This document shows, in pieces, positions 748 to 18,929 of a stretch of DNA of 64,000 nt. Made by a program: the position numbers and the translations under genes. The notes under the pieces are model-generated. The model was not told the origin of the DNA. It ran no database searches and saw nothing but the letters and a program-made list of their open reading frames with translations. Numbering within the stretch: position 1 is the stretch's first letter; every line of letters starts with the position of its first letter. Source of the stretch: a virus (Duplodnaviria > Caudoviricetes); the IMG/VR virus record IMGVR_UViG_3300042866_001263; one strand, written 5' to 3'.

Positions 748-756
748 ATAAATAAC
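748..756 (+). promoter_or_regulatory. T4-type late promoter (ATAAATA)
   Basis: cATAAATAa lies about 30 nt upstream of the 783 ORF. Confidence 0.55.
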
Positions 757-782: not shown

Positions 783-887
783 ATGTTGGATTTTTTTAAA
801 AAAACTTATAATAAAATAATCCAACATTTTGAAACTAAAAAACTCATTAAAGAACTTAAAAGAGAAGATCCTTTTATATACAAATAA
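783..887 (+). CDS. 34-aa micro-protein ending DPFIYK (copy 1), not in ORF track
   Basis: Hand translation MLDFFKKTYNKIIQHFETKKLIKELKREDPFIYK*; a paralogue lies at 16652-16756. Confidence 0.7.
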   Translation: MLDFFKKTYNKIIQHFETKKLIKELKREDPFIYK

Positions 888-895
888 ATTATATT

Positions 896-1759
896 ATGAT
901 TAATTTGAACACAATTGATTCTATAAGGAATAATGATCTTATTCCTTTTCCAAGCACATTTGTGCATAATTACGGAGAACCTGAAGTAATCCAGAGACCT
1001 TCCGTTGTAGGGTCTTGGGATTTCTATGGAATAGATACTTATGAGTTTTATAAAAAGAATTTAAAAAGACAACCTGAAGACTGGTACTATCGACATAATA
1101 AAATCAAGTACACTGTGAATACTTATGGATATAGAACAAAAGAATTTGAAGACATAGATTGGAAAAATTCAATCGTAATGTTTGGTTGTTCTCATGTATT
1201 TGGAACTGGAAATGATGATAGTCATACTATCCCTTACTTTTTAGAACAGAAGACTGGAATTCCAGTTATAAATCTTGGCGCTGGAGGATCTTCAATACAA
1301 TTCTGTCTTCATAACTCTTTAATGTTATATAAAAAATATGGAGTACCAAAATTAGTTATCTATTGTTGGACAGGAATTACTAGACATCTTATCTATCAAA
1401 AAGATTTTGTTTTGATGAATACAAAGTTTGAAGACATTTATGAACATCCACCAGAAGCAGTTGCAGCAGTTGAAGAATCAACTGGATCTGTTTTAAAACC
1501 TGTTAATGCACCAAAAGTTTTAGATCATTTGATTCCATTTAATATGGTAAATGTTGAGTTGATTAAAAATTTATGGGAGGATAAGTGTCCATTATATGAA
1601 TTTTCGACATTTCCAACAACATCAAAGTTATTAGGATGTGAGTTATATACTCCAATACCTAAAGATTATGGAAGAGATTTAGCTCATTATGGAAGACATT
1701 CCAATAAACTGTTCGCTGAAAAAATTTACAACCATTTAAAAAGTGAAAGACATTTATAA
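896..1759 (+). CDS. SGNH/GDSL-like hydrolase or acyltransferase
   Basis: Block I FGCSHVFG, block II NLGAGGSS, C-terminal DLAH. Confidence 0.6.
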   Translation: MINLNTIDSIRNNDLIPFPSTFVHNYGEPEVIQRPSVVGSWDFYGIDTYEFYKKNLKRQPEDWYYRHNKIKYTVNTYGYRTKEFEDIDWKNSIVMFGCSHVFGTGNDDSHTIPYFLEQKTGIPVINLGAGGSSIQFCLHNSLMLYKKYGVPKLVIYCWTGITRHLIYQKDFVLMNTKFEDIYEHPPEAVAAVEESTGSVLKPVNAPKVLDHLIPFNMVNVELIKNLWEDKCPLYEFSTFPTTSKLLGCELYTPIPKDYGRDLAHYGRHSNKLFAEKIYNHLKSERHL

Positions 1760-2459
1760 CCTAGATTGGGAAAAATATAATACTTCCGTATTCAATTCCA
1801 TATCTTATCAATATTATCCAAAAGAAGAATTGGATCTGCGTCCTGGGATGATGGTAGAACCTTTACTTGAATTGGAAGAGGAAAAAATAATCTATGTATC
1901 GATAGCTAAAAATGCTTCGACCTCGATTATAAATTCTTTAAATTTTACTCCAATAAAAATTCCTTTACAATTGGATTGTCCATTTTTAATAGACATTCCA
2001 GAAAAATATAGGAGTGGATATAAGTATTTTGTTGTTACTAGAGACCCAAAAGAAAGATGGATATCCGGAATAAATGAATTTTTAAATATCTATCACCATC
2101 AAGGAGTTGATTTCGATGGTGATAAGAAAGGATCTCGTAATAAGTTCTTAATGGAATTGAAAAATAATAAATTTATATTTGATGGACACACGGAACCACA
2201 AGTTTCGAGGATGAGATTTTGTTTTAAATATGATCTTGATATAACTTTTTTAAAGCTTGATGAAAATTTAAATGAAAAAATATCAGATATTTTAAAAAGA
2301 AAGATAACAATAACTCGTGATAATACATCTGAAAAATTTGAATTTAAATTAAAAAATTACAAATTCTGTCAAGATATTCTAAATGAGTATTGTATGAAAA
2401 ATAAACACTTCTTGGATTTGTATGAAATGGATTTTTATCTATATAATCATTCTTCCTAA
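1743..2459 (+). CDS. Sulfotransferase (Sulfotransfer_2-like)
   Basis: 5'-PSB-like YVSIAKNASTSI, 3'-PB-like VTRDPKERWISG, and DGHTEPQ. Confidence 0.7.
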   Translation: MKDIYNLDWEKYNTSVFNSISYQYYPKEELDLRPGMMVEPLLELEEEKIIYVSIAKNASTSIINSLNFTPIKIPLQLDCPFLIDIPEKYRSGYKYFVVTRDPKERWISGINEFLNIYHHQGVDFDGDKKGSRNKFLMELKNNKFIFDGHTEPQVSRMRFCFKYDLDITFLKLDENLNEKISDILKRKITITRDNTSEKFEFKLKNYKFCQDILNEYCMKNKHFLDLYEMDFYLYNHSS

Positions 2460-2488: not shown

Positions 2489-4036
2489 ATGGATAAATCG
2501 AAGGTAATAGACAGAACGGTTATCAATAAAGATATAACATTTTACGATATTACTGAAGAAGGAAAACTTATAAAGTATTCTTATAAAGAATTTGAAAGGT
2601 TAGTAGATCAAATAAAGAATTATTTTCTTTCTAACTACGAAATAAAATTAGGAGAAACTGTTTTAATTGGTTATTACGGAACTTGTTTACGTAAAGTAGC
2701 CAGTGTTTTTGCTTGTCTAGAATTAGGACTTTCCATTTCAATAATTGATTACAACATTACAGTAATCTCACCAGAATCTGCTACTAAAACTAAACTATTA
2801 TCTCCCATACATTATTTTATTTGTGAGGATGATGTGATTGCAAAAAATCATCCTAGGAGTAAGTTTGCTGTTCTTACTAGACATTGTTTAAACACGATTT
2901 ATTTTACAAATATAAAAAAACATCAGTACAATGAAAATATAAATTATGATATAAAAATTGATCCAAAATCAATTGCAATGAGATGTACATCCAGTGGAAC
3001 TACTGGAACTCCAAAGATTATAGAACATAGTCATGATTTTTTGTTTGATGTTTGTCAAAGAAACTCTAAAATGTTCTATGGAAATGTCGTAAATGAAAAA
3101 TGTTTGGGTCATGGTAGCGGTCCAGCTACATATTTTATTCCAACATTGATGTCAAAAGAAGTAAAAAATGTATTCAATTATTGGGGAGATTGTTCTGATT
3201 TCAATGATCAAAAATATTTCATGAGAAATAAAAACATTTTTGATCACATTATGATTCCATATACTTATGATATTGATGGATATTTGTCTGGAATTGATCC
3301 TGAGAATCCTCCATCAAAGACAACAATTTACACTCTATCTACAATTAAAAAAGAATGGATATCTTTTGTAAAAGAAAACAAAATAAAAAATATTATAAGT
3401 TTATTTGGAACTTCGGAAACTAGTGGACCAATATTCATAAATCAAGCAAGTGATAAAAATTTTGTTCAGAACAAATTTAATTTAATAGACGATTATTATA
3501 AAATTTCTTTTGCTGAAAGAAATCTTTTGGAAGTAAATATTCCAATTTATAATCAAAAAGTTTGCACAAATGATCAATTCATAATTAATTCAGATGGATT
3601 TTATCATAATGGCAGAGCGGATTTAATACGAATAAATGATCATGTTGTGGATGTAAATAGTTACAATGAGATATTAAAAGTATTTAAACCTATCATAGAT
3701 TCCAAATTTGTATACGATCCTGCAGTAAATGAAATATACTTAGCTATATGGAAAACTTCTATAGTAGGAAATTCTGAAGAAACTGGAAAATCTAATTTAG
3801 ATATTTTGATAAGGATTATCAATAATAATATAGGAAATGTTTGTTTGGTTCATCATATAAGTAAATATGAAATTTTAGATCCTAAGTTATTTTTTACCGG
3901 AGTTAAAATAGATGATCAATTGTTACGAGACTATTTTAGATCCCATGTAGAGATAAAATCCAATCCTTCAACATTTATTTTGGAACATAAAGAACAATAT
4001 TTAAGAAAATTTGAAGGGTTGGACTTAGATCCATAA
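2489..4036 (+). CDS. Stand-alone adenylate-forming (ANL/AMP-binding) enzyme
   Basis: Core motifs TSSGTTGTPK (A3), FGTSE (A5), TND (A7), GRADLIRIN (A8), GVKID (A10). Confidence 0.75.
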   Translation: MDKSKVIDRTVINKDITFYDITEEGKLIKYSYKEFERLVDQIKNYFLSNYEIKLGETVLIGYYGTCLRKVASVFACLELGLSISIIDYNITVISPESATKTKLLSPIHYFICEDDVIAKNHPRSKFAVLTRHCLNTIYFTNIKKHQYNENINYDIKIDPKSIAMRCTSSGTTGTPKIIEHSHDFLFDVCQRNSKMFYGNVVNEKCLGHGSGPATYFIPTLMSKEVKNVFNYWGDCSDFNDQKYFMRNKNIFDHIMIPYTYDIDGYLSGIDPENPPSKTTIYTLSTIKKEWISFVKENKIKNIISLFGTSETSGPIFINQASDKNFVQNKFNLIDDYYKISFAERNLLEVNIPIYNQKVCTNDQFIINSDGFYHNGRADLIRINDHVVDVNSYNEILKVFKPIIDSKFVYDPAVNEIYLAIWKTSIVGNSEETGKSNLDILIRIINNNIGNVCLVHHISKYEILDPKLFFTGVKIDDQLLRDYFRSHVEIKSNPSTFILEHKEQYLRKFEGLDLDP

Positions 4037-4048
4037 CAACTTAAAAAA

Positions 4049-4324
4049 ATGCATTTACAGATAATGACTAAATTTAACATAGTAAAAAAAAGTTTGATTC
4101 ATTTGGAGTCTAGTAAAGAAACTTATACAAGTCATTTATTATGGGCTTCTTATGCTGGATTTAAAATGATCTTTGTTGGTATTTCCAGTGTGATTCATGG
4201 AATTGTTCCGGCTTTATTCACAGGCACAGCAGCAAGAATGGTCATAGATTTTTATCACCAGAGATTGGTTAATCACCCAAATAAAGAATATGCAGATTAC
4301 ATTGCCAAACAATCGCATATATAA
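4049..4324 (+). CDS. Small membrane protein, DUF6356-like
   Basis: H..ETY..HL pattern, hydrophobic stretch, IHGIVPALF. Confidence 0.55.
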   Translation: MHLQIMTKFNIVKKSLIHLESSKETYTSHLLWASYAGFKMIFVGISSVIHGIVPALFTGTAARMVIDFYHQRLVNHPNKEYADYIAKQSHI

Positions 4325-4367: not shown

Positions 4368-5705
4368 ATGAGTATAAAATCCAGTAAAACTTTTTGTATG
4401 GCTCCTTGGGTTCATATGAATATAGGACCAAACGGAGATGTTTATCCCTGTTGCATGATGCCTATATGTGGAACAGAGGGAATTGATGAGGACACAAAAG
4501 AAACAACTGATTCAACTGATGAAACAAAAGAAGATGATAAACAATTAATAAATCCTTTGGAGATTGTTGCTACCGAATGTGCTGGTACTCCTAGAGATTT
4601 TAAAATGGGTTCTCTAATGAATGAATCTCTTAAAGAGATTTGGAACAACGAAAAAATGAGAGAACTTCGTAAAAACATGATGGAGGGAAAAGAATCTAGT
4701 TATTGCACATCATGTTACAAAGAAGAAGAAATAGGTCATGGTTCTTTACGATGCAGTATGAATCAGACTTATGCAGAACATTATAAGTATGTTTCAGAAA
4801 CAAAAGAAGATGGAACCTTTGAAAGATTTAATCTTGTCTATTGGGATTTTAGATTAAATAATGTCTGTAATTTTAAATGCAGAATGTGCAGTCCCGGATA
4901 CAGTAGTGCTTGGGAACGTGAAATGCGGAAGGAATTTAATATAGAAGGAGAATACCCAAAAATTGATGTAGATATGGTTCACCAAGATATTGAACCGTTG
5001 TATGATATTGTAGAAGAAGTTTACTTCGCCGGCGGAGAACCTTTAATCACAGACCATCATTATAAAATTCTACGCAAGTTAATTGAAAAAAATAGAAATA
5101 CATCTGTCAGATTATCATATAATACTAATTTTAGTACCTTAAAGTACAAGGATGATAATGTTCTTGAACTATGGAAAAAGTTTCCAAATCTATATTTGTC
5201 TGTAAGTTTTGATGGTACTGGTAAGAAGGGAGAATTAATTCGAAAAGGATTCGATTGGCAAAAGTTCCTAGATAATTTCAAACAATTTAGAAGTAAGTTC
5301 CCCCATACAAACGTAAAGATTAACTATGTCTTTCAAGCCATAAATTGTTTCCATACTATGGATGCCCATAAAGAACTTTATATGAGAGGTATCATTAATA
5401 GTTGGGATGATTTTTCTTTGTGCATATTGCACAATCCCGATTACATGTCAGTTTTAATTCATGATCTTGAATCTAGACGTTTATTGGCTCAAAAAATTAA
5501 ATATCATATAGAAAATTATCTCGTGCCTGCAAAAGCTAAAGAATCAATTAAACAATACATGTCAGTTCTCAAACTTTTGTCCGGTGAAGAAAGAAAAGAT
5601 CTTGTTCCGTATTTTAAATCTTATATGTCTGCACTTGATTGTATAAGAAATGAAAATTCTTTAGAAGTTTTTCCTGAGTTAGAGGGGATTTTAGGAGATG
5701 ATTAA
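4368..5705 (+). CDS. Radical SAM protein with N-terminal SPASM/twitch domain
   Basis: FCMAPW..GDVYPCC..CTSC; CNFKCRMC (CxxxCxxC); YFAGGEP. Confidence 0.85.
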   Translation: MSIKSSKTFCMAPWVHMNIGPNGDVYPCCMMPICGTEGIDEDTKETTDSTDETKEDDKQLINPLEIVATECAGTPRDFKMGSLMNESLKEIWNNEKMRELRKNMMEGKESSYCTSCYKEEEIGHGSLRCSMNQTYAEHYKYVSETKEDGTFERFNLVYWDFRLNNVCNFKCRMCSPGYSSAWEREMRKEFNIEGEYPKIDVDMVHQDIEPLYDIVEEVYFAGGEPLITDHHYKILRKLIEKNRNTSVRLSYNTNFSTLKYKDDNVLELWKKFPNLYLSVSFDGTGKKGELIRKGFDWQKFLDNFKQFRSKFPHTNVKINYVFQAINCFHTMDAHKELYMRGIINSWDDFSLCILHNPDYMSVLIHDLESRRLLAQKIKYHIENYLVPAKAKESIKQYMSVLKLLSGEERKDLVPYFKSYMSALDCIRNENSLEVFPELEGILGDD

Positions 5706-6942
5706 TAAAAATAAAGTCAATGTAAACGGAAAAATTTTTTGTGTTGCACCTTGGTTAGCTTTAGATATTCGACAGGATGGAGAAGTAAAACCATGTTGTG
5801 TCTCTGAATACACTTATGGTGACATTAAGGAAAAACCTTTATGGGAAATTTGGAACGATGAACCAATAAGAAAACTTCGAGAAAATATGTTAAATGATGT
5901 ACCTAGCGAACATTGTCAGGTATGTTATAACAATCAAGCAGCTGGAAAAAGTTCATTAAGAGAAGATTTCATTGGTGATTTATTTTCACAATATAAAAAA
6001 TTAATATATGGAACGAATGATGATTATACAGTAAGTCAACCTACTTTCGTTTGGTGGGATTTGAAATTAAGTAATAAATGCAATTTCAAATGTAGAATGT
6101 GTAGTTGGACTTCAAGTTCCAGTTTTGAGTTAGAACAGAATGGAAAAATTTCTGGGAGATGGAATGCTTCTGAAAAAACGTATGAAGAAGTCGAACAATA
6201 TCTCGGAATGGTTAATCACTTATATTTTTCTGGAGGTGAGTCTTTAATTATAGACGAACATTGGAAAATACTTGATAAACTAATTGAACTTGGTAGAAAT
6301 AATAAGGTTAGTTTGGCATACAATAGTAATTTTAGTAATCTTGTTTATAAAGGCAGACATATCTTTGATATGTGGGATCAATTCAACGAAGATCTGCAAG
6401 TTCACATCAGCGTTGATGGTATTGGTGCGAGAGGGGAATTAATTAGAAAAGGATTTAAATGGGATAGATTTGTTTCTCATGCACAACAATTTAGAGAAAG
6501 ATTTAAAGACAAAGAAGAGACTCACCAATTACACTTTGATTGTACAGTTCAAGCATTAAATATTTTTGAAGTTGTTAAACTTCACCAATATCTTTATACT
6601 AGTGGATTGATGAAAGACATCGATTTCTTCTTTCTAAATTTTATGCAAAATCCAAGAGAAATGTCAGTTTGGATTTTGGATAAACAGACAAAAGAAGCTG
6701 CAAAAGCAAACATAAGAGATCATATAGATAATTTTTTAATTCCTAATAAGTCCAGTAGATCAGTAATCTTCTATGAAAGTCTAATAAAATATATTGATTT
6801 GTATCAGGAACAACATTTGATCCCAGATTTCTTGAGATCAATGCGAAAGTTTGATAAATTACGAAATGAAAGTACTATTCAAACATTTCCAGAGTTTCAA
6901 AGGATCTGGAATGTCATTAAGACTAAACCTAAAACTTTATAA
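5698..6942 (+). CDS. Second radical SAM/SPASM-twitch paralogue
   Basis: FCVAPW..VKPCC..CQVC; CNFKCRMC; YFSGGES. Confidence 0.85.
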   Translation: MINKNKVNVNGKIFCVAPWLALDIRQDGEVKPCCVSEYTYGDIKEKPLWEIWNDEPIRKLRENMLNDVPSEHCQVCYNNQAAGKSSLREDFIGDLFSQYKKLIYGTNDDYTVSQPTFVWWDLKLSNKCNFKCRMCSWTSSSSFELEQNGKISGRWNASEKTYEEVEQYLGMVNHLYFSGGESLIIDEHWKILDKLIELGRNNKVSLAYNSNFSNLVYKGRHIFDMWDQFNEDLQVHISVDGIGARGELIRKGFKWDRFVSHAQQFRERFKDKEETHQLHFDCTVQALNIFEVVKLHQYLYTSGLMKDIDFFFLNFMQNPREMSVWILDKQTKEAAKANIRDHIDNFLIPNKSSRSVIFYESLIKYIDLYQEQHLIPDFLRSMRKFDKLRNESTIQTFPEFQRIWNVIKTKPKTL

Positions 6943-6944
6943 AA

Positions 6945-7094
6945 ATGACGCAAACAATCTCGGATAAAAAGGAAAAGGAACACAAAGAAGAAAGAAAGGA
7001 CAATATCTTTCTAGAAATTCTTTCTAATATTTTTATTCAACTTCCAGTTATAGCTATTGGGTGGATTATCTCACAGTTTACTTCAGAAGGATAA
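6945..7094 (+). CDS. 49-aa membrane micro-protein (cassette copy 1), not in track
   Basis: MTQTISDKKEKEHKEERKDNIFLEILSNIFIQLPVIAIGWIISQFTSEG; paralogue at 32293-32424. Confidence 0.6.
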   Translation: MTQTISDKKEKEHKEERKDNIFLEILSNIFIQLPVIAIGWIISQFTSEG

Positions 7095-7949
7095 TCTAGC
7101 TGATAATTTCTTAGCAATTTTTTTAGCAGGGGCAAAGAGAGACTTAAATCTTTCTTTGCCTTCTTTTGTAAACTTATCTTTGATAACATCATCAATAATG
7201 ATTTTATTATCAATCTCATAGAGAGAATTGATTTCAACTTGATCACGAATGTATTGTTCTACATTAGTTACTTGTTCTACTAAACGAGTTCCTTCTGCAG
7301 AATATTCAAAAACATCTATATGTCCACCTTCTGCCATAACATAATGCAGAACTGGTTTGACTTGTTTAATTTTAATTTTAAATTTATTTTTAGTTGCTTC
7401 CTTAATGATTGGTTCTGCTGCGTTTTTCAGGGCATTCAGAACAGTTGTTGATGCTATAGTAGCAGCAGTGGTAACTACTGCTACAGCACCAGCCGTAGCA
7501 ACAAGAGAAGGATCAGGTAAATTAATATCGATTCCACCGACAGTAAAGGTTGGAGTAGTAGGTTTATCTGCTGGTATCTCAGCAACTGGAACTTGGACAG
7601 AGGGGGTCTGAGTAACTTGAGGCAGTTGAGGTGGAGGGGTTGAATCCGGAAGTCCTCTATTTTTTGCTGCGTCTTCTTGTGCCTGTTTTTCTTTATCCGC
7701 TCTCACAGCAGCATCAAACTCTTCCTGTGTAGGAACATTGATGACTGGATACTTAATGGAAGTATCTGGCATTTCAAATACGGGAAGTGCCATTCCACGA
7801 ACAATTGGAACTTCTACGCTACGAAGTACTGGCTGTTCTATTGTTGAAATGACACTTGGACCATCAATACCAATTTTTGGTATTACCTTAGAATTATTTG
7901 GTATGTTGGCAATTCCATTGGTATTATTTATTGGCGGTATTGGATCCAT
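7083..7949 (-). CDS. Pro-rich single-TM protein (cassette copy 1)
   Basis: Pro-rich N-half, TM SLVATAGAVAVVTTAATIA; paralogue 32416-33282. Confidence 0.7.
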   Translation of the reverse strand: MDPIPPINNTNGIANIPNNSKVIPKIGIDGPSVISTIEQPVLRSVEVPIVRGMALPVFEMPDTSIKYPVINVPTQEEFDAAVRADKEKQAQEDAAKNRGLPDSTPPPQLPQVTQTPSVQVPVAEIPADKPTTPTFTVGGIDINLPDPSLVATAGAVAVVTTAATIASTTVLNALKNAAEPIIKEATKNKFKIKIKQVKPVLHYVMAEGGHIDVFEYSAEGTRLVEQVTNVEQYIRDQVEINSLYEIDNKIIIDDVIKDKFTKEGKERFKSLFAPAKKIAKKLSARLSF

Positions 7950-8493
7950 TTGGATACCTCACAACTATATCGGCACAGATTCTGTAGTATGGACTTTCTG
8001 GGTGAAATGTAATACCAGATTTGATTGCTTCGCCACACTTTAATAGTCTGACTAATTCAAAATCAAGTCTTGCTTTGTCTGCTTCTGCATTTTGTCGTTT
8101 GATTTCAGAACGGGCTCTTTCCTTACAGAGTTCGGTTAGTCCTCCATCTAAAGGAAAGTTGAAACCCATACTTACACCAGCGTTACCATTATGTGATTGA
8201 AATGTTGATGGGTCTTGACTGCCATTCATACTCCCCAATACAAAGGGAGAAAAACTCATGGTTGGTCCTTGGCAACTAACTCCTCCGCCGTAGGTATTGA
8301 CTGCATACGGTCCTTGTAAGACTTGGACAGCTTGGTTAGTAACATTACCTGTAGCGGAAGCAGAAGGGCCAGCGATATTAGTATTACTAGGAGCAGATTG
8401 AGAATAAGCCGCACCATGACATAATACTCCTATTGCGTAAAGACAGATATAGATGTAGTTGTTGATTGTGTTTCTGTGCTTCGATCTATCCAT
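7924..8493 (-). CDS. Exported beta-strand plus coiled-coil protein (cassette copy 1)
   Basis: Signal-like N-terminus, GNVTNQAVQVLQGP, ARLDFELVRLLKCGE; paralogue 33257-33826. Confidence 0.7.
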   Translation of the reverse strand: MDRSKHRNTINNYIYICLYAIGVLCHGAAYSQSAPSNTNIAGPSASATGNVTNQAVQVLQGPYAVNTYGGGVSCQGPTMSFSPFVLGSMNGSQDPSTFQSHNGNAGVSMGFNFPLDGGLTELCKERARSEIKRQNAEADKARLDFELVRLLKCGEAIKSGITFHPESPYYRICADIVVRYPNGSNTANK

Positions 8494-8789
8494 GTTTCTT
8501 TAGCCACTCCAGGTCCGAGATAAGTCTCACTAAACTGGAAAGGGGCACCTTGATTCATAATACTGTAATTTGCTCCTTGTTGAGGAGTGCCAGGAATGTT
8601 AATATTAGTTCCAGTCACAGTGTATGATGTGCCAGTTGTATATTCAACTTGGCGAATTGTTTCTATAACTTTTGTAGTTGATTCGGTTGTCGCGTTGATT
8701 GTACCCCTAGTAAAATTAGGTACAACACTTTCCGCTAGGGCAGGACAAGAAAACCCTAGCAGGAGAAGTCCCGCTAGGATATGTCTCAT
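8430..8789 (-). CDS. Secreted Thr-rich protein (cassette copy 1)
   Basis: Signal peptide ending PALA-ESVVPNFTRG; near-identical paralogue 33763-34122. Confidence 0.75.
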   Translation of the reverse strand: MRHILAGLLLLGFSCPALAESVVPNFTRGTINATTESTTKVIETIRQVEYTTGTSYTVTGTNINIPGTPQQGANYSIMNQGAPFQFSETYLGPGVAKETWIDRSTETQSTTTSISVFTQ

Positions 8790-9247
8790 TTGAATACGCT
8801 TAACTCAACTGTTCTTTGAGCTGTTGCAGTAGTTCCAGGACCACCAGCAGTTACAGTAGGAACACCAGTAGGCGATAATGTACCAGCGAGAGATCCTTTA
8901 TCTCCTGCTAACTGAGTAACACTATCCCCATAAAGGTTGGGAGAAGCAATAACTCCACCACTGACCGACTGAGTGGTGACTGGTGTATCAGCAGCATTGA
9001 AAGTTTCTGAGAAACTGAATGCTTGACCTGGAGTATTAATATTGTAACTTCCGGCACCATTTACGCCACCGAATGTAGTTGCTTGAATATTTGTTCCTGA
9101 AGCAGAATAAGATGCTCCAATTCTTGTTGATTGAACCGCTGCGCCCTGTACACCCAATTGAACGGAATCAGTAATTTTTGATGTAATTTCAGCAGCACTA
9201 ACAGGATTGATTAAGAATAACGAAAAGACGAGTAATAATCTTTTCAT
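8786..9247 (-). CDS. Secreted Gly/Ser/Thr-rich protein (cassette copy 1)
   Basis: Signal peptide ending PVSA-AEITS; paralogue 34119-34580; minus-strand late promoter at about 9272-9278. Confidence 0.75.
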   Translation of the reverse strand: MKRLLLVFSLFLINPVSAAEITSKITDSVQLGVQGAAVQSTRIGASYSASGTNIQATTFGGVNGAGSYNINTPGQAFSFSETFNAADTPVTTQSVSGGVIASPNLYGDSVTQLAGDKGSLAGTLSPTGVPTVTAGGPGTTATAQRTVELSVFK

Positions 9248-9288
9248 TGTTCTATGAATTAGTTGGCAGCTTATTTATCTACTTTATA

Positions 9289-11952
9289 TTATTTTGTGAG
9301 AAATCCCCTAAAAGACACATTACTTATACTTAATGTTCCTTGAAATGGTTCATTGCCAGTTAATGCGTCCCAAATAACAATGGGATCTCCACCTTCTAAA
9401 CTATTTACATTTGCCCAGTTTACATCATTTGCACTGGTTGATTCTACTCCAGTAAAAAATTGAGATGTATCTGCAGTTCCAACACTGTTCCTTAACCAAG
9501 TTCTCACATCTTGCCAAGTCCAAGTACGGTTGTATTGTAACTTAGTTGCAATCAATCCCGTTGCTACTGGACATGCGGAACTTGTGCCACTAAAAGCTTC
9601 ATCATATGAGGTTAATACACTATTAGAAACTCTAGCATTAGCCCCAAAATGAATATCAATTTGACTTGGACTTGCTTCATAAAAAGTTGCTTCATAAACC
9701 ATAGTAGGAGAACCAAGTGTTCCCCCAGTACTATTGGTCCCTTCCCATCTAATTCTATATGTTCTATTTGGAGAAGAACCTTCTGTACCATAATAAATTC
9801 TTTGACAAGAATTATCTGCACAAGACATCATAATTTTTCTGAATGCTGGGTTAGAAAAACTTAATCCATTGAATGCAGTTGATCCTCCACCAAAAGTAAT
9901 GTATGTATTTGTTCCTGGATAAACGATGTTTGTACTGAGTCCAGCAAATTGTATAGTAAATGGTAAAGTTAAGGTCCAAAATCCATCATCATTAGTTCCA
10001 TTAGTTGGAGTTGTTGCAGTGGATGCTAATCCTACAGCACCCAATAAATTTAATTCTAAATCGACAACAGTACCAATACCAGAACTTGTCGTAATTCTTT
10101 TCCCCGTATTTAATAGTAATCGGAAACCACTAGTTCCACTGAGTTCTGCACTGACACTGGCAATTCCAGTGAGTCCACTATCACTTGGAATCACTGATCC
10201 AGTATAAGTATCAGGTCTTGGTTGGTTTACTTGATTAGTTGCACTTAGAGTTCCATCTGCTGGTGCATAACAATCAATTTCATTTCCCATATCACTATAA
10301 TTGACTTTCCATTCTTTGCCAGTTAGATTAAATGCATCATCAAGAGCTCCAATATTGATAACAGGATAAATTAGATTACCTCCACCATCAGTATACATAC
10401 CCAATTGTTGTGGGTATCCTCTTCTGTTAGTCGTATTATATGCAGTAACACCAAATTCCGAATGTGTAGATTCTCCCAGTGTTGCTCCACTTCCAACAGT
10501 ACTCCAATAATTATTGAAATCTGGGTGAGTTTGACTTACTTGTTTTTGGTTGGAGTTCCCTGCTGCAGCAATAAAAATAACTCCGGCATCAATCATCTCT
10601 TTTCCTGCTGTTAATACAGAGTTTGGGAGATGTTCACCCTTCATTCTATTACCATCACCATAAACTCCAACATAATTCATGAATCCTGGCAATGTACTTA
10701 TAGTATAACTGGTTCCTATACCTTGACCACGATAAAAATACCATCCAGTAGTTCTATGAGATGTTGATCTATATCCCCAACTATTACTACTTATTGTTGG
10801 ATTTTTATTTCCATATCTTGGATTGATTCTTTTTGCTTGATGAAACAATTTCATCATGGTGAAATATGGTTCAAAATCTGTACCATCAGTTCCATAAGCA
10901 TTTACTGACCATTTGTTTGCATTATATGCCCATCCTTGAGTCCGGCCAACAGCGTTTGCTGTACACTGAGTACCATGAGTTGTAGTAATAGTTGGTCTAG
11001 CAGAAGAAGAACCATTACAACGAGCTCTCGTGTATGCGGATGTTACAGTAACCGTACCTATTGTAGAAAACCCTACAGATCTCTGCGATGAGTTTGACCA
11101 CCAAGTTCTAGCAACACTTTCTACTGGAACTCTAGTTCCATCCCACCGTAATGTTAATCTAGAAGCTGGCACAGCTTCAAACCATGCTGGATCAATCCAA
11201 TAAGGAGCATCTAAAACAAGATCTAAAAGATCACATGTCCCGTTTGTAGCAGAAGTTGCTAAAGTAGAAAATCCAACCGCTAATGCATTTCTTCCTTTAT
11301 AATCTCTTGGACCAGTTCCTGTTGCATTAGTTTGAAATTCTACATGACCAAACCAACATCCTTCATCACCAACTATGACATCAATATCTGTTCCATCACC
11401 ATATTGTGGAATTACATTGGTTAATATTTGATTTGATCCTGTAGATATGCCCGTATACCACGAATCGGATTTATTAACGCATCTTAGGAGTTGATATCCA
11501 CTTCTGTTTAATTCTGTTGCTCCAGGACTTGCGGGAAGTTGGTTATTATCACTCCAGTTTCTATATTGTCTTGTTGCAGTATTATAACGATTTTTTTTTA
11601 TATATCCCGCATGTAGTTCTTCTGGATCTGGTTTGTACTTGCAAGGATAACTTTCATAATTTTCATGAACATATTCTACTCTTGGATGTTTGAGTAGTTC
11701 ATTTGCTTCTTGGTCTGTCAATAGATAAACAGCCCTAGTTTCACTATGTTCTTTTAAGTCTGCACAATCGCAACATTCATGAGGAATATTGTCTTCTAAA
11801 GTACCATCTTGAACCAAAAGTTCATGGATATATTGCCAATCTTCTGAGGAATAACAACCAACTGCATATAATTTTTTGGCATTTGGATCCGTTGGATACT
11901 CGATACCTAATCCAATTTGATGATCGTATTCTTTTTTGATTTCGTTTTCCAT
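9289..11952 (-). CDS. Subtilisin-like (S8) serine protease, probable virion protein
   Basis: Catalytic motifs DVIVGDEG (Asp), THGTQC (His), AAAGNS (oxyanion Asn), FSGTSSACP (Ser). Confidence 0.8.
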   Translation of the reverse strand: MENEIKKEYDHQIGLGIEYPTDPNAKKLYAVGCYSSEDWQYIHELLVQDGTLEDNIPHECCDCADLKEHSETRAVYLLTDQEANELLKHPRVEYVHENYESYPCKYKPDPEELHAGYIKKNRYNTATRQYRNWSDNNQLPASPGATELNRSGYQLLRCVNKSDSWYTGISTGSNQILTNVIPQYGDGTDIDVIVGDEGCWFGHVEFQTNATGTGPRDYKGRNALAVGFSTLATSATNGTCDLLDLVLDAPYWIDPAWFEAVPASRLTLRWDGTRVPVESVARTWWSNSSQRSVGFSTIGTVTVTSAYTRARCNGSSSARPTITTTHGTQCTANAVGRTQGWAYNANKWSVNAYGTDGTDFEPYFTMMKLFHQAKRINPRYGNKNPTISSNSWGYRSTSHRTTGWYFYRGQGIGTSYTISTLPGFMNYVGVYGDGNRMKGEHLPNSVLTAGKEMIDAGVIFIAAAGNSNQKQVSQTHPDFNNYWSTVGSGATLGESTHSEFGVTAYNTTNRRGYPQQLGMYTDGGGNLIYPVINIGALDDAFNLTGKEWKVNYSDMGNEIDCYAPADGTLSATNQVNQPRPDTYTGSVIPSDSGLTGIASVSAELSGTSGFRLLLNTGKRITTSSGIGTVVDLELNLLGAVGLASTATTPTNGTNDDGFWTLTLPFTIQFAGLSTNIVYPGTNTYITFGGGSTAFNGLSFSNPAFRKIMMSCADNSCQRIYYGTEGSSPNRTYRIRWEGTNSTGGTLGSPTMVYEATFYEASPSQIDIHFGANARVSNSVLTSYDEAFSGTSSACPVATGLIATKLQYNRTWTWQDVRTWLRNSVGTADTSQFFTGVESTSANDVNWANVNSLEGGDPIVIWDALTGNEPFQGTLSISNVSFRGFLTK

Positions 11953-11972
11953 TCTTTAATTATTTAAAAAAT

Positions 11973-14756: not shown

Positions 14757-14828
14757 TAATTTTCCTCAGTCTTTCCCTATTTTTATATTTATTGATGCTT
14801 ATAACTAGTAATAGAATTATTTGCAGTC

Positions 14829-15266
14829 ATGCAATTCAACTTTCAATTTGATAAAAAGAGACCAGATAAAAAACAACTTATTATAGTTGGAGTTGTAATA
14901 TCAACTATAATCGCAACACTCTCCCAGTGTTCGGGAGTTTCTGAGAATAGACTTTGGGACTTATTGGATGAACTTCAGAGAAAGTATTTTCCACAAACTA
15001 TTCTTAATGACATTATACTTCAAGATCCAGACAAAGTAAATCGTAGAGTTGGTAGAGATATTGATAAGGCTATACGAGATGTAGAAAAAGAATATGATAG
15101 GATTATTGCAGAGTCAGATAGAAAATATAAACCACGATACCTTGAAGAGAAGAACGATGAGTCTTTATGTTACTCGGAGGATTGCAAAAAACTTGCACCA
15201 CCAATCAGAATGTGTTCTCCAGTTTTTGAGAGAACGGATTGTTCCCAGAAACCTGAAGATAAATAA
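14829..15266 (+). CDS. Hypothetical membrane-anchored phage protein
   Basis: ORF with N-terminal hydrophobic segment and a C-terminal Cys cluster. Confidence 0.55.
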   Translation: MQFNFQFDKKRPDKKQLIIVGVVISTIIATLSQCSGVSENRLWDLLDELQRKYFPQTILNDIILQDPDKVNRRVGRDIDKAIRDVEKEYDRIIAESDRKYKPRYLEEKNDESLCYSEDCKKLAPPIRMCSPVFERTDCSQKPEDK

Positions 15267-15300
15267 ATAGAATTATAAAAGTACTTTTTATCGTAGACAA

Positions 15301-16586: not shown

Positions 16587-16609
16587 AGGGGGGATATCCC
16601 CCCTTTTTT
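16587..16609 (+). terminator. Intrinsic terminator
   Basis: GGGGGG-ATAT-CCCCCC followed by T6. Confidence 0.85.
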
Positions 16610-16651
16610 AATGTTCGGATAAATAAGTCTAAGTGATTCAAAAAACTTTTA

Positions 16652-16756
16652 ATGATTAGAAAACTTTGGAATCTTATTTCTGACTGGAAAAAAGAAAGAG
16701 ATTTTACTAAAAGACTTAAAAAACTTCAAAAAAGAGATCCGTTTATTTACAAGTGA
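16652..16756 (+). CDS. 34-aa micro-protein ending DPFIYK (copy 2), not in ORF track
   Basis: MIRKLWNLISDWKKERDFTKRLKKLQKRDPFIYK*; its TGA overlaps the GTG of the carbamoyltransferase; late promoter ATAAATA about 16618-16626. Confidence 0.7.
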   Translation: MIRKLWNLISDWKKERDFTKRLKKLQKRDPFIYK

Positions 16757-18177
16757 TTACCTGGGGAATATCTTCCGAAAGTCATAATGCTGCACTTTCT
16801 GTATTCATGAATGACACTCTCATTTTCGCTAGTGAAAGTGAGAGGTTTAGTGGTGTCAAGAATGATCACCAATTAAATGATGGTATAATTGAATATGCAT
16901 TAAAGTTTGGAAAACCAGAACTGGTCTGTTGGTATGAGAACCCGTATAAGAAAACACTTAGACAACTTCTTGCGGGTCAAGGATGGATCCAAAACGTCAA
17001 GAAGTATGTTGATGCTCCAATCAAGTATTATGATCACCATTATACTCATGCTTGTGCTGGTTATTTCACCAGCAAGTTTGATGAATGTTGTGTGGTGGTT
17101 ATTGACGCTATAGGTGAATTCCAAACACTTACTATCTGGGAAGCGAAAGGTAGTAACCTAAAACTAAAATTTCAACGTAGATATCCGCACAGCATCGGAC
17201 TTTGGTACTCTGCAATGACCCAAAGGTGTGGATTGAAACCAAATGAAGAAGAATATATCCTCATGGGCATGTCTGCTTACGGTGATAAGAGACGTTATGA
17301 GGATGCAATCTATGATGATTTTATAGGATGGAGAACGGCAACATTTAATAAAAACTTACATAAAGGTTGTAAGGATTGGAGACCAGATATTAAGAATACT
17401 TTTGATATTGCTGCCGCAACTCAAAGTATCTACGAAACAACATTTAGAGATATTTTACAGAGAGCATCTAATATTGTTGATAGTAAGAACTTGGTCTTGA
17501 TGGGTGGATGTGCATTGAACTGTGTTGCAAATCCAATTGCATATTATTACTTTGATAATGTGTGGATTATGCCTGCACCTGGAGACAATGGATCTGCGAT
17601 TGGTGCTGTACTTGCACATAAGAAGAAACATATTGATTGGCATGGTCCATATCTTGGTTATCATATAAAACCAGTTGCATCAAACGAAGAGATTGTTAAT
17701 CACTTGATGGATCATGGTCTCTGTGGAGTTGCAAGAGGTCGTGCAGAGTTTGGTCCTAGAGCATTAGGTAATCGAAGTTTGTTTGCTGATCCTAGAGATC
17801 AAAAGATTAAATCAATGGTCAACCGTATAAAACAAAGACAACAGTTTAGACCATTCGCTCCTGTGATTATGGAAGAATATGTTCATCAGTACTTTAGAAT
17901 GCCTACAAGTTCTTCACCATATATGCAATATGCGGTGAAATGTAGATACTCTAAAAAGTTTCCTGCAATTGTTCATATAGATAAGACAAGCAGAGTTCAA
18001 ACTATTAATAGACATCAAAACGCAGAACTCTATGATCTTTTGAAATTGTGGAACGAGAAAACTGGTTGTCCTATGTTACTGAATACCAGTTTGAATGTTA
18101 AAGGAAAACCAATGGTAAATGATGAGAAAGATTGTAAGGAATGGGAAGAGACTTACGGAGTTAAGGTGTTTTCATGA
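16753..18177 (+). CDS. Carbamoyltransferase (NodU/CmcH/TobZ family)
   Basis: SHNAA..SERFSGVKND, DHHYTHA, VIDAIGE, GGCALNC, GRAEFGPRALGNRS, LLNTSLN. Confidence 0.92.
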   Translation: MITWGISSESHNAALSVFMNDTLIFASESERFSGVKNDHQLNDGIIEYALKFGKPELVCWYENPYKKTLRQLLAGQGWIQNVKKYVDAPIKYYDHHYTHACAGYFTSKFDECCVVVIDAIGEFQTLTIWEAKGSNLKLKFQRRYPHSIGLWYSAMTQRCGLKPNEEEYILMGMSAYGDKRRYEDAIYDDFIGWRTATFNKNLHKGCKDWRPDIKNTFDIAAATQSIYETTFRDILQRASNIVDSKNLVLMGGCALNCVANPIAYYYFDNVWIMPAPGDNGSAIGAVLAHKKKHIDWHGPYLGYHIKPVASNEEIVNHLMDHGLCGVARGRAEFGPRALGNRSLFADPRDQKIKSMVNRIKQRQQFRPFAPVIMEEYVHQYFRMPTSSSPYMQYAVKCRYSKKFPAIVHIDKTSRVQTINRHQNAELYDLLKLWNEKTGCPMLLNTSLNVKGKPMVNDEKDCKEWEETYGVKVFS

Positions 18178-18929
18178 CTAAAATTTTACTTGCTTTTGGT
18201 GATAGTCACACAGGAGGTGCTGAAATAGATGAACAGTATTCATCTGAGTGTCATGATAGGGCTTATCCTGCACACATAGCTAAACATTATGGGTTTGATT
18301 ATGAAAACTATTCTGCTTGTGGTGGCAGCAATGATTGGATGATCAGACAATTTATGATAAGAATTCAAAATGCTTTGATGAAAAATCAAGAAGTTTTTGT
18401 TCTTTGTAATTTTTGTGAGGCTTCAAGAACTTATATTAAATTGCCAGGAAAACTTCATCATTGTACTTCTTCACACTTATTACAAGACAAAAATACTAAA
18501 AAAGAATTATTAATTGATTCCGATTTTATTGGACCTTATAAAAATTATATAGAAACAAACTCCGACAAATTTTTAAATTTTAAATCTTTATCTCAAATTT
18601 TTACAATACAATCAATATGTGATCAATACAGTATACCATATGTTTTTCATACAAGCACTCATTGGTATGAAGGAAATTGGCAACTAATTAATAAAAAAAA
18701 TTATTTTGGTCATCATGATACCGAAAGAGTAATTTATAACCAAGAAGAATCTTTTAAAAGTTATGCAAATTATTCTTATTGGGGAATAGCGACTCATCAT
18801 CCTGATTGGAAAAATTTAAGATATGATTCAAGATGGTCCATGCACTATCCAGAAGAATACCATAAGTTTTGGGCTCAATTATTAATTAACTTCATTGATG
18901 AACGGGGAATACTTGACACAGCCACTTGA
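18174..18929 (+). CDS. SGNH-like hydrolase or acyltransferase
   Basis: LLAFGDSHTGG, NYSACGGSND, C-terminal SMHYPEE. Confidence 0.6.
   Translation: MTKILLAFGDSHTGGAEIDEQYSSECHDRAYPAHIAKHYGFDYENYSACGGSNDWMIRQFMIRIQNALMKNQEVFVLCNFCEASRTYIKLPGKLHHCTSSHLLQDKNTKKELLIDSDFIGPYKNYIETNSDKFLNFKSLSQIFTIQSICDQYSIPYVFHTSTHWYEGNWQLINKKNYFGHHDTERVIYNQEESFKSYANYSYWGIATHHPDWKNLRYDSRWSMHYPEEYHKFWAQLLINFIDERGILDTAT

What the first reader, a model, noticed from the sequence alone, without database searches (positions are those of the whole stretch)
783..887. Twin 34-aa DPFIYK micro-peptides, each leading a tailoring-enzyme cassette
Seen: two ORFs below the track cut-off (783-887 and 16652-16756) are both exactly 34 aa, basic and amphipathic, and end in an identical DPFIYK. 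The rest of the protein and the DNA have diverged. Each follows an ATAAATA late promoter and is the first gene of an enzyme operon; copy 2 is translationally coupled to the carbamoyltransferase through GTGA. Inference: the conserved C-terminal hexapeptide is functional. It could be a RiPP-like precursor with a conserved core, a docking or scaffold peptide that recruits the enzymes to a membrane or virion, or a coupling leader. I know of no characterised function for it.
Basis: partly seen in the sequence, partly recalled or inferred. Interest (0 to 1): 0.82.

Follow-up and report, generated by a model that had tools for sequence, protein, structure and literature searches.

The report
DPFIY micro-protein of phage carbamoyltransferases
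The two 34-residue ORFs are real members of a large, uncatalogued, phage-specific micro-protein family with a near-invariant ...RKRDPFIY(K) tail, almost always encoded with, and usually translationally coupled to, one clade of O-carbamoyltransferases; they most likely serve as a peptide substrate or docking partner of those enzymes.

Summary
Both ORFs (783-887 and 16652-16756) are 34 aa and end in DPFIYK. The window is a freshwater T4-like cyanomyovirus.

- **Family size.** A profile search found 579 clusters (50% identity representatives). No Pfam, PHROG or NCBIfam model matches, and no paper contains the motif.
- **Protein-level selection.** Synonymous codons vary freely at every conserved residue.
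- **Phage-specific.** In 596 Gb of cellular genomes only 12 of 86 pattern hits are family members, all on MAG contigs.
- **Gene linkage.** The next gene is a NovN/GdmN/TobZ-type carbamoyltransferase in 55 of 101 loci, 48 of them with an ATGA/GTGA overlap. In 14 loci it is an SGNH/DUF6071-like enzyme. Starting from the enzyme instead, 64 of the 80 closest carbamoyltransferase loci carry the peptide.
- **Cassette 1.** The enzyme after copy 1 has an SGNH fold. Its best structural match is CgnD, the leader peptidase of the carbamoylated RiPP crocagin.

Best reading (about 0.4): a RiPP-like substrate or scaffold peptide. Rivals are a docking subunit and a translational leader. Function is untested.

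The parts
748..754 (+). ATAAATA, T4-type late-promoter-like motif upstream of copy 1
   Evidence: 28 nt before the ATG at 783. Promoter function is inferred, not shown.
783..887 (+). Micro-protein copy 1 (34 aa, ...KREDPFIYK, net charge +4), the 'E-DPFIYK' subtype
   Evidence: HMM E 1.4e-13. Orthologue in contig G001.
896..1759 (+). 287-aa SGNH-fold enzyme (GCS block I, DxxH block V), CgnD-like
1743..2459 (+). 238-aa protein, no family found
   Evidence: no Pfam or NCBIfam hit. Conserved in the same position in G001.
2489..4036 (+). Adenylate-forming (AMP-binding) enzyme, 515 aa
   Evidence: PF00501, E 1.8e-11.
4049..4324 (+). DUF6356 protein, 91 aa
   Evidence: PF19883, E 2.7e-14.
4368..5705 (+). 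Radical SAM enzyme with N-terminal twitch/SPASM-like domain
   Evidence: (NF033640, 359.5 bits, cut-off 170).
5698..6942 (+). Second N-twitch radical SAM paralogue
   Evidence: (NF033640, 322.6 bits).
16587..16604 (+). Intrinsic terminator hairpin ending the upstream unit
   Evidence: 7-bp stem with 6 GC pairs, followed by a T run.
16619..16625 (+). ATAAATA late-promoter-like motif upstream of copy 2
   Evidence: 26 nt before the ATG at 16652.
16652..16756 (+). Micro-protein copy 2 (34 aa, ...QKRDPFIYK, net charge +8)
   Evidence: HMM E 1.9e-13; one long helix (residues 2-28), a break at Asp-Pro, then a short turn; pLDDT 89.6.
16753..18177 (+). O-carbamoyltransferase (Kae1-like N domain plus YrdC-like C domain); GTG start overlaps the stop of copy 2
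   Evidence: PF02543 and PF16861. NovN E 2e-83, also GdmN and TobZ; the HHxSH, GGCALN and PGD motifs are conserved.
18174..18929 (+). SGNH/DUF6071-like enzyme (GDS block I), coupled to the carbamoyltransferase
   Evidence: (cluster with DUF6071 hits).

Best explanation
The two ORFs encode a trans-acting micro-protein. It consists of a variable, usually basic amphipathic helix, then a conserved basic stretch (KKRLxELRKR), then an Asp-Pro break and a near-invariant hydrophobic hook, F-I-Y. It is made from the same mRNA as a phage clade of NovN/TobZ-type O-carbamoyltransferases, usually just ahead of the enzyme. Ribosomes that finish the peptide restart on the enzyme gene through the ATGA/GTGA overlap, so the peptide should be at least as abundant as the enzyme. 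I propose that the C-terminal tail is taken up by the Kae1-like transfer domain of the carbamoyltransferase and, where they are present, by the co-encoded SGNH, 2OG-Fe(II), methyltransferase and radical-SAM enzymes. In this model the tail is their substrate or scaffold: a RiPP-like precursor with a C-terminal core, as in crocagin. The basic stretch would act as the recognition element, and the invariant Tyr, the only hydroxyl in the core, is the likeliest acceptor (+43 Da carbamoyl). An SGNH enzyme of the CgnD type may then release the modified C-terminal fragment. What is shown: the family exists, is under protein-level selection, is phage-specific and is genetically linked to these enzymes. 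What is inferred: binding, the modified residue, and any release step.
For: 1. The family is real and large. A profile search finds 579 representative clusters at E<=1e-3.
2. Selection acts on the protein. Arg is encoded by AGA and CGN codons, Leu by CTN and TTR, Pro by all four codons and Ile by all three, at invariant residues.
3. The family is phage-specific. Only 12 of 86 pattern hits in 596 Gb of cellular genomes are members, all on MAG contigs. The other 74 are chance hits, consistent with my rough estimate of about 100 expected from the pattern's degeneracy.
4. Linkage, starting from the peptide. The next gene is the carbamoyltransferase in 55 of 101 loci, 48 of them overlapping by 4 nt, and an SGNH/DUF6071-like gene in 14. 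Among 54 loci with at least 3 kb downstream, the enzyme lies within three genes in 43 and within 6 kb in 47.
5. Linkage, starting from the enzyme. 64 of the 80 closest carbamoyltransferase loci carry the peptide, about 50 of them directly adjacent. Four of five checked loci with no peptide within 3 kb have a divergent copy elsewhere on the contig.
6. The peptide is found directly upstream of structurally unrelated tailoring enzymes in different phages: carbamoyltransferase, SGNH, 2OG-Fe(II) oxygenase, methyltransferase, nucleotidyltransferase and rSAM/SPASM. That is natural for a shared substrate and harder to explain for a dedicated subunit.
8. The peptide stays coupled to forms of the enzyme that keep only the Kae1-like domain, with intact HHxSH and PGD motifs.
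9. Co-fold of the window's carbamoyltransferase with copy 2: weak support. Score 0.52, best of 3 controls 0.00. The pass mark was reached by 58 of 80 solved complexes and 2 of 110 mismatched pairs, but at 0.60 or under by only 7 of those 80 and by both mismatches. The runs agree in at least 72% of contacts, and the partner's pLDDT is at least 60.
10. Ser, Thr and Cys are almost absent from the family (0.9%, 1.6% and 0.1%). Tyr is therefore the only hydroxyl in the DPFIY core.
Against: - No modified peptide has been observed, and translation itself is not shown.
- The defining crocagin proteins CgnB and CgnE were not identified, and no peptidase or exporter typical of RiPP clusters was seen.
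- The CgnD match is at fold level only. A sequence profile does not reach it, and generic SGNH esterases score within about 2 Z units.
- In the commonest context (primase > peptide > carbamoyltransferase > DnaB helicase) no other tailoring enzyme is nearby.
- A characterised phage carbamoyltransferase modifies 5hmC in DNA or RNA and works without any peptide in vitro (PMC8670742).
- Several islands also hold proteins that look like fucosyltransferases to my eye (a TEK motif in alignment A6; not tested). Together with sugar-type enzymes this fits glycan tailoring as well as peptide tailoring.
- O-carbamoyl-tyrosine in a ribosomal peptide has, to my knowledge, no precedent.
- A net charge of +8 is unusual for a RiPP precursor.
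- The co-fold support is weak, and no interface was returned.
Confidence: 0.4

Rival explanations
1. Non-substrate partner. The micro-protein is a small accessory subunit or adaptor. Its C-terminal LRKRDPFIY hook docks onto the Kae1-like domain of the carbamoyltransferase. Kae1/TsaD enzymes use small partners such as TsaB, Pcc1 and Gon7 (my own knowledge). The variable N-terminal helix would tether the enzyme to a membrane surface, nucleic acid or virion, or activate it in the way MbtH-like proteins activate adenylation domains.
For: The 4-nt translational coupling in 48 of 55 loci is typical of stoichiometric partners. The co-fold gives weak support (score 0.52 against best control 0.00, with the caveats listed). 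The peptide is predicted to be a long amphipathic helix of net charge +8. It persists with enzymes that keep only the Kae1-like domain. The N-terminal part is freely replaceable, including by acidic extensions and a roughly 110-aa domain that looks NTF2-like to my eye (L291), as expected for a portable docking motif. The earlier scan note e1-5338040 independently suggested an anchor or adaptor role.
Against: The peptide is also directly coupled to unrelated folds (SGNH, 2OG oxygenase, methyltransferase, rSAM). N-termini that are acidic or globular argue against a general membrane-anchor role. Characterised family members (TobZ, NovN, GdmN and the 5hmC enzyme) need no small subunit.
Confidence: 0.3
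2. Cis-acting translational leader. The nascent C-terminal sequence acts inside the ribosome, as in TnaC, SpeFL or the fungal arginine attenuator peptide. It would stall or release ribosomes in response to a metabolite and so gate re-initiation on the overlapping enzyme gene.
For: Conservation is concentrated in the last 16 or so residues while the N-terminus varies. The stop/start overlap dominates: 93 of 119 loci end in TGA within ATGA or GTGA. By my reading of the sequence there is no purine-rich Shine-Dalgarno element in the DPFIYK codons ahead of the enzyme start. The length (33-41 aa) is similar to SpeFL (my own knowledge).
Against: The distance from the motif to the stop is not fixed. 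Members end in DPFIY, DPFIYK, DPFIYKH or DPFIYNNV, some have longer extensions, and one is a tandem double peptide. 26 of 119 end in TAA without overlap. Some copies lie 140-1400 nt from, or downstream of, the enzyme gene. Copy 1 in this window has no carbamoyltransferase behind it. The motif also sits at the end of a 138-aa protein. The co-fold, though weak, favours a trans interaction.
Confidence: 0.1
3. Independent effector that merely travels with the cassette. In this reading it is a cationic helical peptide acting on a host target (membrane, nucleic acid or a regulator), or a module-boundary element of mobile gene cassettes, with no biochemical tie to the neighbouring enzymes.
For: The peptide is strongly cationic and amphipathic. 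It sits at the 5' edge of hypervariable islands and at a late-promoter/terminator junction in this phage. The peptide-enzyme pair occurs in unrelated phage lineages, T4-like cyanophages and jumbo phages, suggesting a mobile unit.
Against: Linkage to one enzyme clade is too tight and too specific for hitch-hiking (80% of enzyme loci; 47 of 54 peptide loci). It also persists across very different genomic contexts.
Confidence: 0.1

Closest known systems
Crocagin RiPP system (CgnA precursor; CgnC 2OG dioxygenase, CgnD SGNH-type hydrolase, CgnL methyltransferase, CgnI carbamoyltransferase) of Chondromyces crocatus (PMC10070186)
   Same: A short ribosomal peptide with a basic leader and a tiny aromatic core at the extreme C-terminus (I-Y-W there, F-I-Y here). 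It is co-encoded with an O-carbamoyltransferase and an SGNH-fold enzyme. In some phages a 2OG-Fe(II) oxygenase or a methyltransferase is directly coupled to the peptide. CgnD is the best structural match of the enzyme after copy 1.
   Different: No CgnB or CgnE peptide-binding proteins were found. The peptide is longer and more basic. The core has no Trp, so no pyrroloindoline is possible. The commonest phage context holds the carbamoyltransferase alone. The hosts are phages, not myxobacteria. No product is known.
HypF-HypE (carbamoylation of the C-terminal Cys of HypE by a YrdC-like plus Kae1-like enzyme); my own knowledge
   Same: An enzyme of the same superfamily transfers a carbamoyl group from carbamoyl-AMP onto the extreme C-terminus of a protein partner encoded nearby.
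   Different: HypE is a 35-kDa enzyme and the acceptor is a thiol. Here the partner is 34 aa, has no Cys, and ends in Tyr-(Lys). HypF matches the window enzyme only marginally.
C-terminal-Tyr cofactor precursors MftA (mycofactocin) and PqqA; my own knowledge
   Same: Small conserved peptides whose invariant Tyr-containing core, not the leader, is the conserved part. They are processed by rSAM/SPASM enzymes, and every producer makes the same product.
   Different: No MftB/PqqD-type RRE protein, MftC or PqqE was detected. The rSAM enzymes here belong to the N-terminal-twitch family NF033640 and are absent from most loci.
Phage 5-hydroxymethylcytosine carbamoyltransferase (MetaGPA study, PMC8670742)
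   Same: A phage-borne TobZ-type O-carbamoyltransferase. In jumbo-phage-like contigs the peptide-linked enzyme sits inside the replication module, between primase and DnaB.
   Different: That enzyme is larger (63 kDa), is linked to a dCMP hydroxymethylase, and works alone in vitro with no peptide mentioned. I did not search the window for a dCMP-hydroxymethylase gene, and here the enzyme follows a late-promoter-like motif.
Regulatory leader or arrest peptides (TnaC, SpeFL, fungal AAP); my own knowledge
   Same: Short upstream ORFs of 24-34 aa with a conserved C-terminal part that control a downstream metabolic gene.
   Different: The motif's distance to the stop varies. Many copies are uncoupled or distant, and the motif also ends longer proteins.
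MbtH-like proteins of NRPS clusters; my own knowledge
   Same: A small, conserved, cluster-encoded protein that accompanies one enzyme class across many otherwise different gene clusters.
   Different: MbtH proteins are about 70 aa, folded, and bind adenylation domains. There is no sequence or fold relation.

Membership tests
Any catalogued protein family for the micro-protein (Pfam-A, PHROGs v4, NCBIfam r20) | Significant match of the peptides to a curated profile | tested here: not met
   For the 101 members scanned there was no consistent family. The best was phrog_5432 at E 0.04 for one copy, and PriX for 7 members at E no better than 0.003, which I judge to be a low-complexity match.
RiPP precursor peptide, crocagin-like | Short ribosomal peptide with a conserved core at the extreme C-terminus preceded by a basic leader | tested here: met
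   Median length 37 aa, net charge +8, DPFIY followed by 0-3 residues in nearly all members.
RiPP precursor peptide, crocagin-like | Co-location with tailoring enzymes of the crocagin type (carbamoyltransferase, SGNH hydrolase, 2OG-Fe(II) oxygenase, methyltransferase) | tested here: met
   CgnD is the top structural match of window 896-1759.
RiPP precursor peptide, crocagin-like | Paired CgnB/CgnE peptide-binding proteins next to a CgnC dioxygenase | tested here: inconclusive
   None was recognised among annotated neighbours. Profiles of the two commonest unknown neighbour families found nothing in the PDB. No dedicated CgnB/E search was run.
RiPP precursor peptide, crocagin-like | Covalently modified and/or cleaved peptide product | not testable with these tools
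   Needs mass spectrometry.
NodU/CmcH/TobZ O-carbamoyltransferases (window 16753-18177) | Kae1-like N domain plus YrdC-like C domain, above the curated cut-offs | tested here: met
   PF02543 125.7 bits (cut-off 24) and PF16861 177.6 bits (cut-off 27). NovN E 2e-83, GdmN, TobZ.
NodU/CmcH/TobZ O-carbamoyltransferases (window 16753-18177) | Metal-binding His motif (HHxSH) and the conserved Asp residues of the Kae1-like site | tested here: met
   H95, H96, H99, D118 and D278 are invariant, including in the N-domain-only forms.
SGNH/GDSL hydrolase superfamily (window 896-1759 and 18174-18929) | SGNH fold with a block I Ser and a block V Asp-x-x-His | tested here: met
Ribosome-arrest or leader peptide | Fixed register between the conserved residues and the stop codon or stall site | tested here: not met
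   endings include DPFIY, DPFIYK, DPFIYKH, DPFIYNNV and longer; 26 of 119 are uncoupled TAA stops.
N-terminal-twitch radical SAM proteins (window 4368-5705 and 5698-6942) | NCBIfam NF033640 above its cut-off | tested here: met
   359.5 and 322.6 bits against a cut-off of 170.

The most novel reading that the evidence does not exclude
Phages of very different lineages (freshwater and marine T4-like cyanophages, jumbo phages including the cultured Ralstonia phage RsoM2USA) share a previously unrecognised ribosomal-peptide pathway. An invariant DPFIY core at the C-terminus of a 33-41 aa peptide is carbamoylated on Tyr by a dedicated TobZ-type enzyme and, in larger islands, further tailored and clipped. 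The result would be one conserved modified peptide or small molecule made during infection. That would be the first widespread, phage-specific RiPP-like class and the first peptide substrate for this carbamoyltransferase family.
Probability: 0.3. Interest if true: 0.88.

Novelty: new variant of a known kind. Interest (0 to 1): 0.72.

Why it matters
- **Invisible to current annotation.** Micro-proteins under 50 aa are routinely missed. This one is unannotated in the cultured phage RsoM2USA, which has a complete genome.
- **Large but uncatalogued.** The family has hundreds of sequence clusters, a near-invariant motif and a tight link to one enzyme clade, yet it is absent from Pfam, PHROGs, NCBIfam and the searchable literature.
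- **Open question on phage carbamoyltransferases.** These enzymes are common 'auxiliary' genes of cyanophages, and only one phage member has a known substrate (5hmC). A dedicated peptide partner gives a concrete, cheap experimental handle on what the other clade does.
- **If the peptide is the substrate,** phages make a conserved modified peptide during infection, which would be a new kind of viral chemistry.
- **If it is an adaptor,** it would be a new example of a portable docking motif for tailoring enzymes.
- **In either case** the motif is a simple marker for finding these islands in metagenomes.

Tried and rejected
- **Tool limits.** The search for homologous proteins and the search for related loci refuse queries under 40 aa. 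No whole genome is held for the window.
- **Phage record searches.** Megablast of the first 8 kb against phage records found no match. tblastn of the peptides found nothing for copy 2 and two weak hits for copy 1. One of those (MH319727.1) proved real: SDPYIYEE, ATGA-coupled to a carbamoyltransferase.
- **Literature.** 'DPFIY' occurs in no paper. No paper combines RiPP, phage, carbamoyltransferase and precursor peptide.
- **Cultured cyanophages with distant carbamoyltransferases** (about 28-34% identity: P-RSM4, S-SSM7, C48C1) have no family member anywhere in the genome. The peptide therefore belongs to one enzyme clade, not to all phage carbamoyltransferases.
- **Expression.** No RNA holder was listed for the window stretch; all 24 runs are DNA, mostly lake-water metagenomes.
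- **Neighbour annotation.** Sequence searches of the PDB with the rSAM enzyme, the AMP-binding enzyme and profiles of neighbour families A3, A5 and A6 gave nothing useful. The protein atlas had no usable hit for the 359-aa neighbour family.
- **Frameshift fusion.** I considered programmed frameshifting that would fuse the peptide to the enzyme and rejected it. There is no slippery heptamer in the DPFIYK codons (my reading), and synonymous variation there is free.
- **Tandem multi-core precursors.** Only one fused double peptide was seen (P0003). The apparent doubles were weak second-domain artefacts.

Full report
**1. The observation**

Window 783-887 and 16652-16756 (+ strand) each translate to 34 residues ending in DPFIYK. 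The degenerate DNA pattern for DPFIY occurs exactly twice in the 64 kb, against 0.03 expected; none of 100 shuffles reaches two. The two peptides share about 30% identity. Only the last 15 residues align, 9 of 15 identical, and the DNA differs at synonymous positions inside the motif.

The stop of copy 2 overlaps the GTG start of the next gene (AAGTGA). Copy 1 ends 8 nt before the next ATG. Each copy lies 26-28 nt downstream of an ATAAATA motif. The motif is not over-represented in the window as a whole, but by my reading most copies sit just upstream of gene starts. Copy 2 also follows a strong intrinsic terminator. A family HMM finds no third copy in the window.

The window is a T4-like cyanomyovirus carrying psbA, psbD, baseplate hub and tail genes. 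Near-identical DNA is held by lake-water metagenomes.

**2. It is a large family, not a pair**

About 115 of the hits are ORFs of 30-45 aa with the same architecture: a variable N-terminal half, then ...KKRLKELRKRDPFIYK (alignment A1).
- A profile search of 1.84 billion representative proteins found 579 clusters at E<=1e-3.
- The endings show that the conserved unit is [KR]-x-D-P-F-I-Y. The final Lys is usual but can be D, E, R, H or N, or be absent. Rare variants are DPYIY, DPYLY, DNFIY, DPFVY and GPFIY, and Tyr is never replaced.
- No Pfam, PHROG or NCBIfam model matches, and no paper in the library contains the motif.

**3. It is a protein under selection, and it is phage-specific**

Across 103 distinct DNA tails every conserved residue is written with all or most of its synonymous codons: Arg as AGA, CGT, CGA, CGC and CGG; Leu as CTA, CTT, TTA, TTG and CTG; Pro with four codons; Ile with three. 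The constraint is therefore on the amino-acid sequence, not on an RNA element.

The same pattern in 596 Gb of bacterial and archaeal genomes gives 86 hits. Of these, 74 are chance matches inside unrelated frames, consistent with my rough estimate of about 100 expected from the pattern's degeneracy. The other 12 are true members, all on MAG contigs. This is an internal negative control and shows that the family is essentially viral.

**4. What it travels with**

Starting from the peptide:
- The next gene on the same strand is a carbamoyltransferase in 55 of 101 loci, 48 of them with a 4-nt ATGA/GTGA overlap.
- It is an SGNH/DUF6071-like enzyme in 14 loci.
- Elsewhere it is a 2OG-Fe(II) oxygenase, a methyltransferase, a nucleotidyltransferase, an rSAM/SPASM enzyme, a Smr protein or a MazE-like protein.
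- 93 of 119 peptides end in TGA embedded in ATGA or GTGA.
- Among 54 loci with at least 3 kb downstream, the carbamoyltransferase is the first gene in 32, within three genes in 43 and within 6 kb in 47.

Starting from the enzyme, which is unbiased with respect to the motif:
- 64 of the 80 closest relatives of the window's enzyme (52-94% identity) have the peptide within 3 kb, about 50 of them directly upstream.
- Four of five checked exceptions carry a divergent copy, for example EDNFIYK, elsewhere on the fragmentary contig.
- Cultured cyanophages whose carbamoyltransferases are only about 28-34% identical (P-RSM4, S-SSM7, C48C1) have no copy.
- The cultured Ralstonia jumbo phage RsoM2USA has the closest enzyme among deposited phages (46.8%). 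It has an unannotated 36-aa member wedged between genes 201 and 200, followed by an SGNH-like gene and then the carbamoyltransferase.

Two syntenies dominate:
- A: primase > peptide > carbamoyltransferase > DnaB helicase, on contigs related to jumbo phages.
- B: several N-twitch radical-SAM paralogues > a 359-aa unknown > (SGNH) > peptide > (SGNH) > carbamoyltransferase.

In about 12 type-A loci the enzyme is reduced to its Kae1-like N domain, with intact HHxSH, GGCA(M/L)N and PGD motifs, and it is still coupled to the peptide.

**5. The two cassettes of this window**

- **Copy 2** leads the carbamoyltransferase (NovN E 2e-83, also GdmN and TobZ). A coupled SGNH/DUF6071-like enzyme follows.
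- **Copy 1** leads a 287-aa protein with no Pfam hit. Its family is homologous to the DUF6071/SGNH-like family (hhalign 98%, E 1e-13). Its AlphaFold model (pLDDT 90) has an SGNH fold. After it come a 238-aa unknown, an adenylate-forming enzyme, a DUF6356 protein and two radical-SAM enzymes of family NF033640.
- **A related phage.** In contig G001 (138 kb) both peptides and both cassettes are present but only two genes apart. The 'twin cassettes' are therefore halves of one hypervariable island, which in this window is interrupted by about 9.7 kb of mostly minus-strand genes, including a tail-fibre-like one.

**6. Mechanism**

The peptide alone is predicted to be one long helix (residues 2-28) broken at Asp-Pro, then a short turn carrying F-I-Y (pLDDT 89.6). 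The family has median net charge +8 and 33% Lys plus Arg. It has almost no Ser, Thr, Cys or Gly, so Tyr is the only hydroxyl in the DPFIY core.

Co-folding the window's enzyme with copy 2 gave weak support. The score was 0.52 against 0.00 for the best of three controls. The pass mark was reached by 58 of 80 solved complexes and 2 of 110 mismatches, but at 0.60 or under by only 7 of the 80 and by both mismatches. The runs agree in at least 72% of contacts, and the partner's pLDDT is at least 60. No interface was returned.

CgnD is the hydrolase that clips the three-residue C-terminal core (I-Y-W) from the 21-aa, basic-leader precursor CgnA in crocagin biosynthesis. That pathway also uses a 2OG dioxygenase, a methyltransferase and the carbamoyltransferase CgnI (PMC10070186). 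All four enzyme classes are found directly coupled to the DPFIY peptide in one phage or another.

A peptide that sits ahead of unrelated enzyme folds is most simply their common substrate. By my own knowledge, HypF, of the same superfamily, carbamoylates the C-terminus of HypE. I therefore rank a RiPP-like substrate or scaffold peptide first (about 0.4), with the basic stretch as recognition element and Tyr as the likely carbamoyl acceptor.

**7. Why it may be wrong**

- Nothing covalent has been observed.
- CgnB and CgnE equivalents were not found.
- The CgnD link is at fold level only.
- The commonest context has the carbamoyltransferase alone, inside a replication module. One phage enzyme of this type modifies 5hmC and needs no peptide (PMC8670742).
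- The larger islands also look like sugar-tailoring clusters.

A non-substrate docking or activator subunit (0.3) explains the coupling, the co-fold and the replaceable N-terminus equally well. That N-terminus includes acidic extensions and a roughly 110-aa domain fused to the tail in L291. A cis-acting arrest leader (0.1) is weakened by the variable distance from motif to stop and by uncoupled or distant copies. Pure hitch-hiking (0.1) is hard to square with the tightness of the linkage.

**8. Novelty and verdict**

The family is real, very widespread, phage-specific, uncatalogued and unannotated even in a cultured phage. Its function is unknown.

The nearest known logic is a C-terminal-core RiPP (crocagin) or a small enzyme partner, so I class it as a new variant of a known kind. 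It agrees with the pattern found here.

Noticed in passing
window 7082-9247 and 32415-34580: A diverged 2.2-kb direct duplication (78-91% identity, exactly 25,333 nt apart). It carries the same three minus-strand ORFs in each copy (288, 189 and 153 aa). The function of the ORFs was not examined.
   Followed up: no
window 15301-16566 (repeats at 15487-15913): A 421-aa ORF just upstream of copy 2 contains short tandem repeats in the DNA: 9-18-nt periodic GCT/AAA/CCT units, plus a 102-nt unit repeated at 97% identity. This implies an Ala/Lys/Pro-rich low-complexity protein. There is no Pfam hit.
   Followed up: no
L002 2041-2151 (MG752970.1 125998-125891, minus strand): The cultured Ralstonia jumbo phage RsoM2USA has an unannotated 36-aa family member. 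Its start overlaps the stop of gene 201 (ATGA). It is followed by SGNH-like gene 200 and carbamoyltransferase gene 199.
   Followed up: yes
L009 8494-9441, L026 2751-3689, L084, L089, L099, L115, L101, L014, L046, L035: In jumbo-phage-like contigs the 'carbamoyltransferase' between primase and DnaB helicase is only the Kae1-like N domain (312-336 aa) with intact metal-binding motifs. It has no YrdC-like carbamoyl-AMP-forming domain nearby. It is unclear how, or whether, it obtains an activated carbamoyl group.
   Followed up: partly
L291 2534-3001: A roughly 138-aa protein that looks to my eye like an NTF2/SnoaL-type domain ends in ...YKKKLAEYRKRDPFIYR and is ATGA-coupled to the carbamoyltransferase. 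This is a natural fusion of a globular domain to the family's tail. The fold was not tested.
   Followed up: no
L215 (G001:C1:92000-109000): In a related 138-kb phage contig the two cassettes of this window are separated by only two genes. The window therefore carries a roughly 9.7-kb insertion (tail-fibre-like and duplicated genes, 7083-16566) inside one biosynthetic island.
   Followed up: partly
window 4368-6942; cluster 1 in L010, L012, L016, L047, L062, L105 and others: Radical-SAM enzymes whose twitch/SPASM-like Fe-S domain is N-terminal (NF033640) occur as 2-4 tandem paralogues upstream of the peptide in many phage islands. Their substrate is unknown.
   Followed up: partly
alignment A6 (e.g. 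L012 8859-11136, L016, L038, L044): A roughly 365-aa family present in 2-3 paralogues in type-B islands has a conserved F-x-TEKTFKP...DESYD signature. It reminds me of GT10/GT11 fucosyltransferases. There is no Pfam or PDB sequence hit.
   Followed up: no
L217 2171-3004 and L217-L219 at about 5481-5615: In phages whose carbamoyltransferase is 91-92% identical to the window's, the upstream peptide is replaced by a 277-aa radical-SAM protein that is ATGA-coupled to the enzyme. A divergent ...KKEDNFIYK peptide lies about 1.1 kb downstream instead.
   Followed up: partly
P0003 (75 aa): One representative protein is a head-to-tail fusion of two family peptides, each ending in DPFIYK. It could be a lost stop codon or a two-core precursor.
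   Followed up: no
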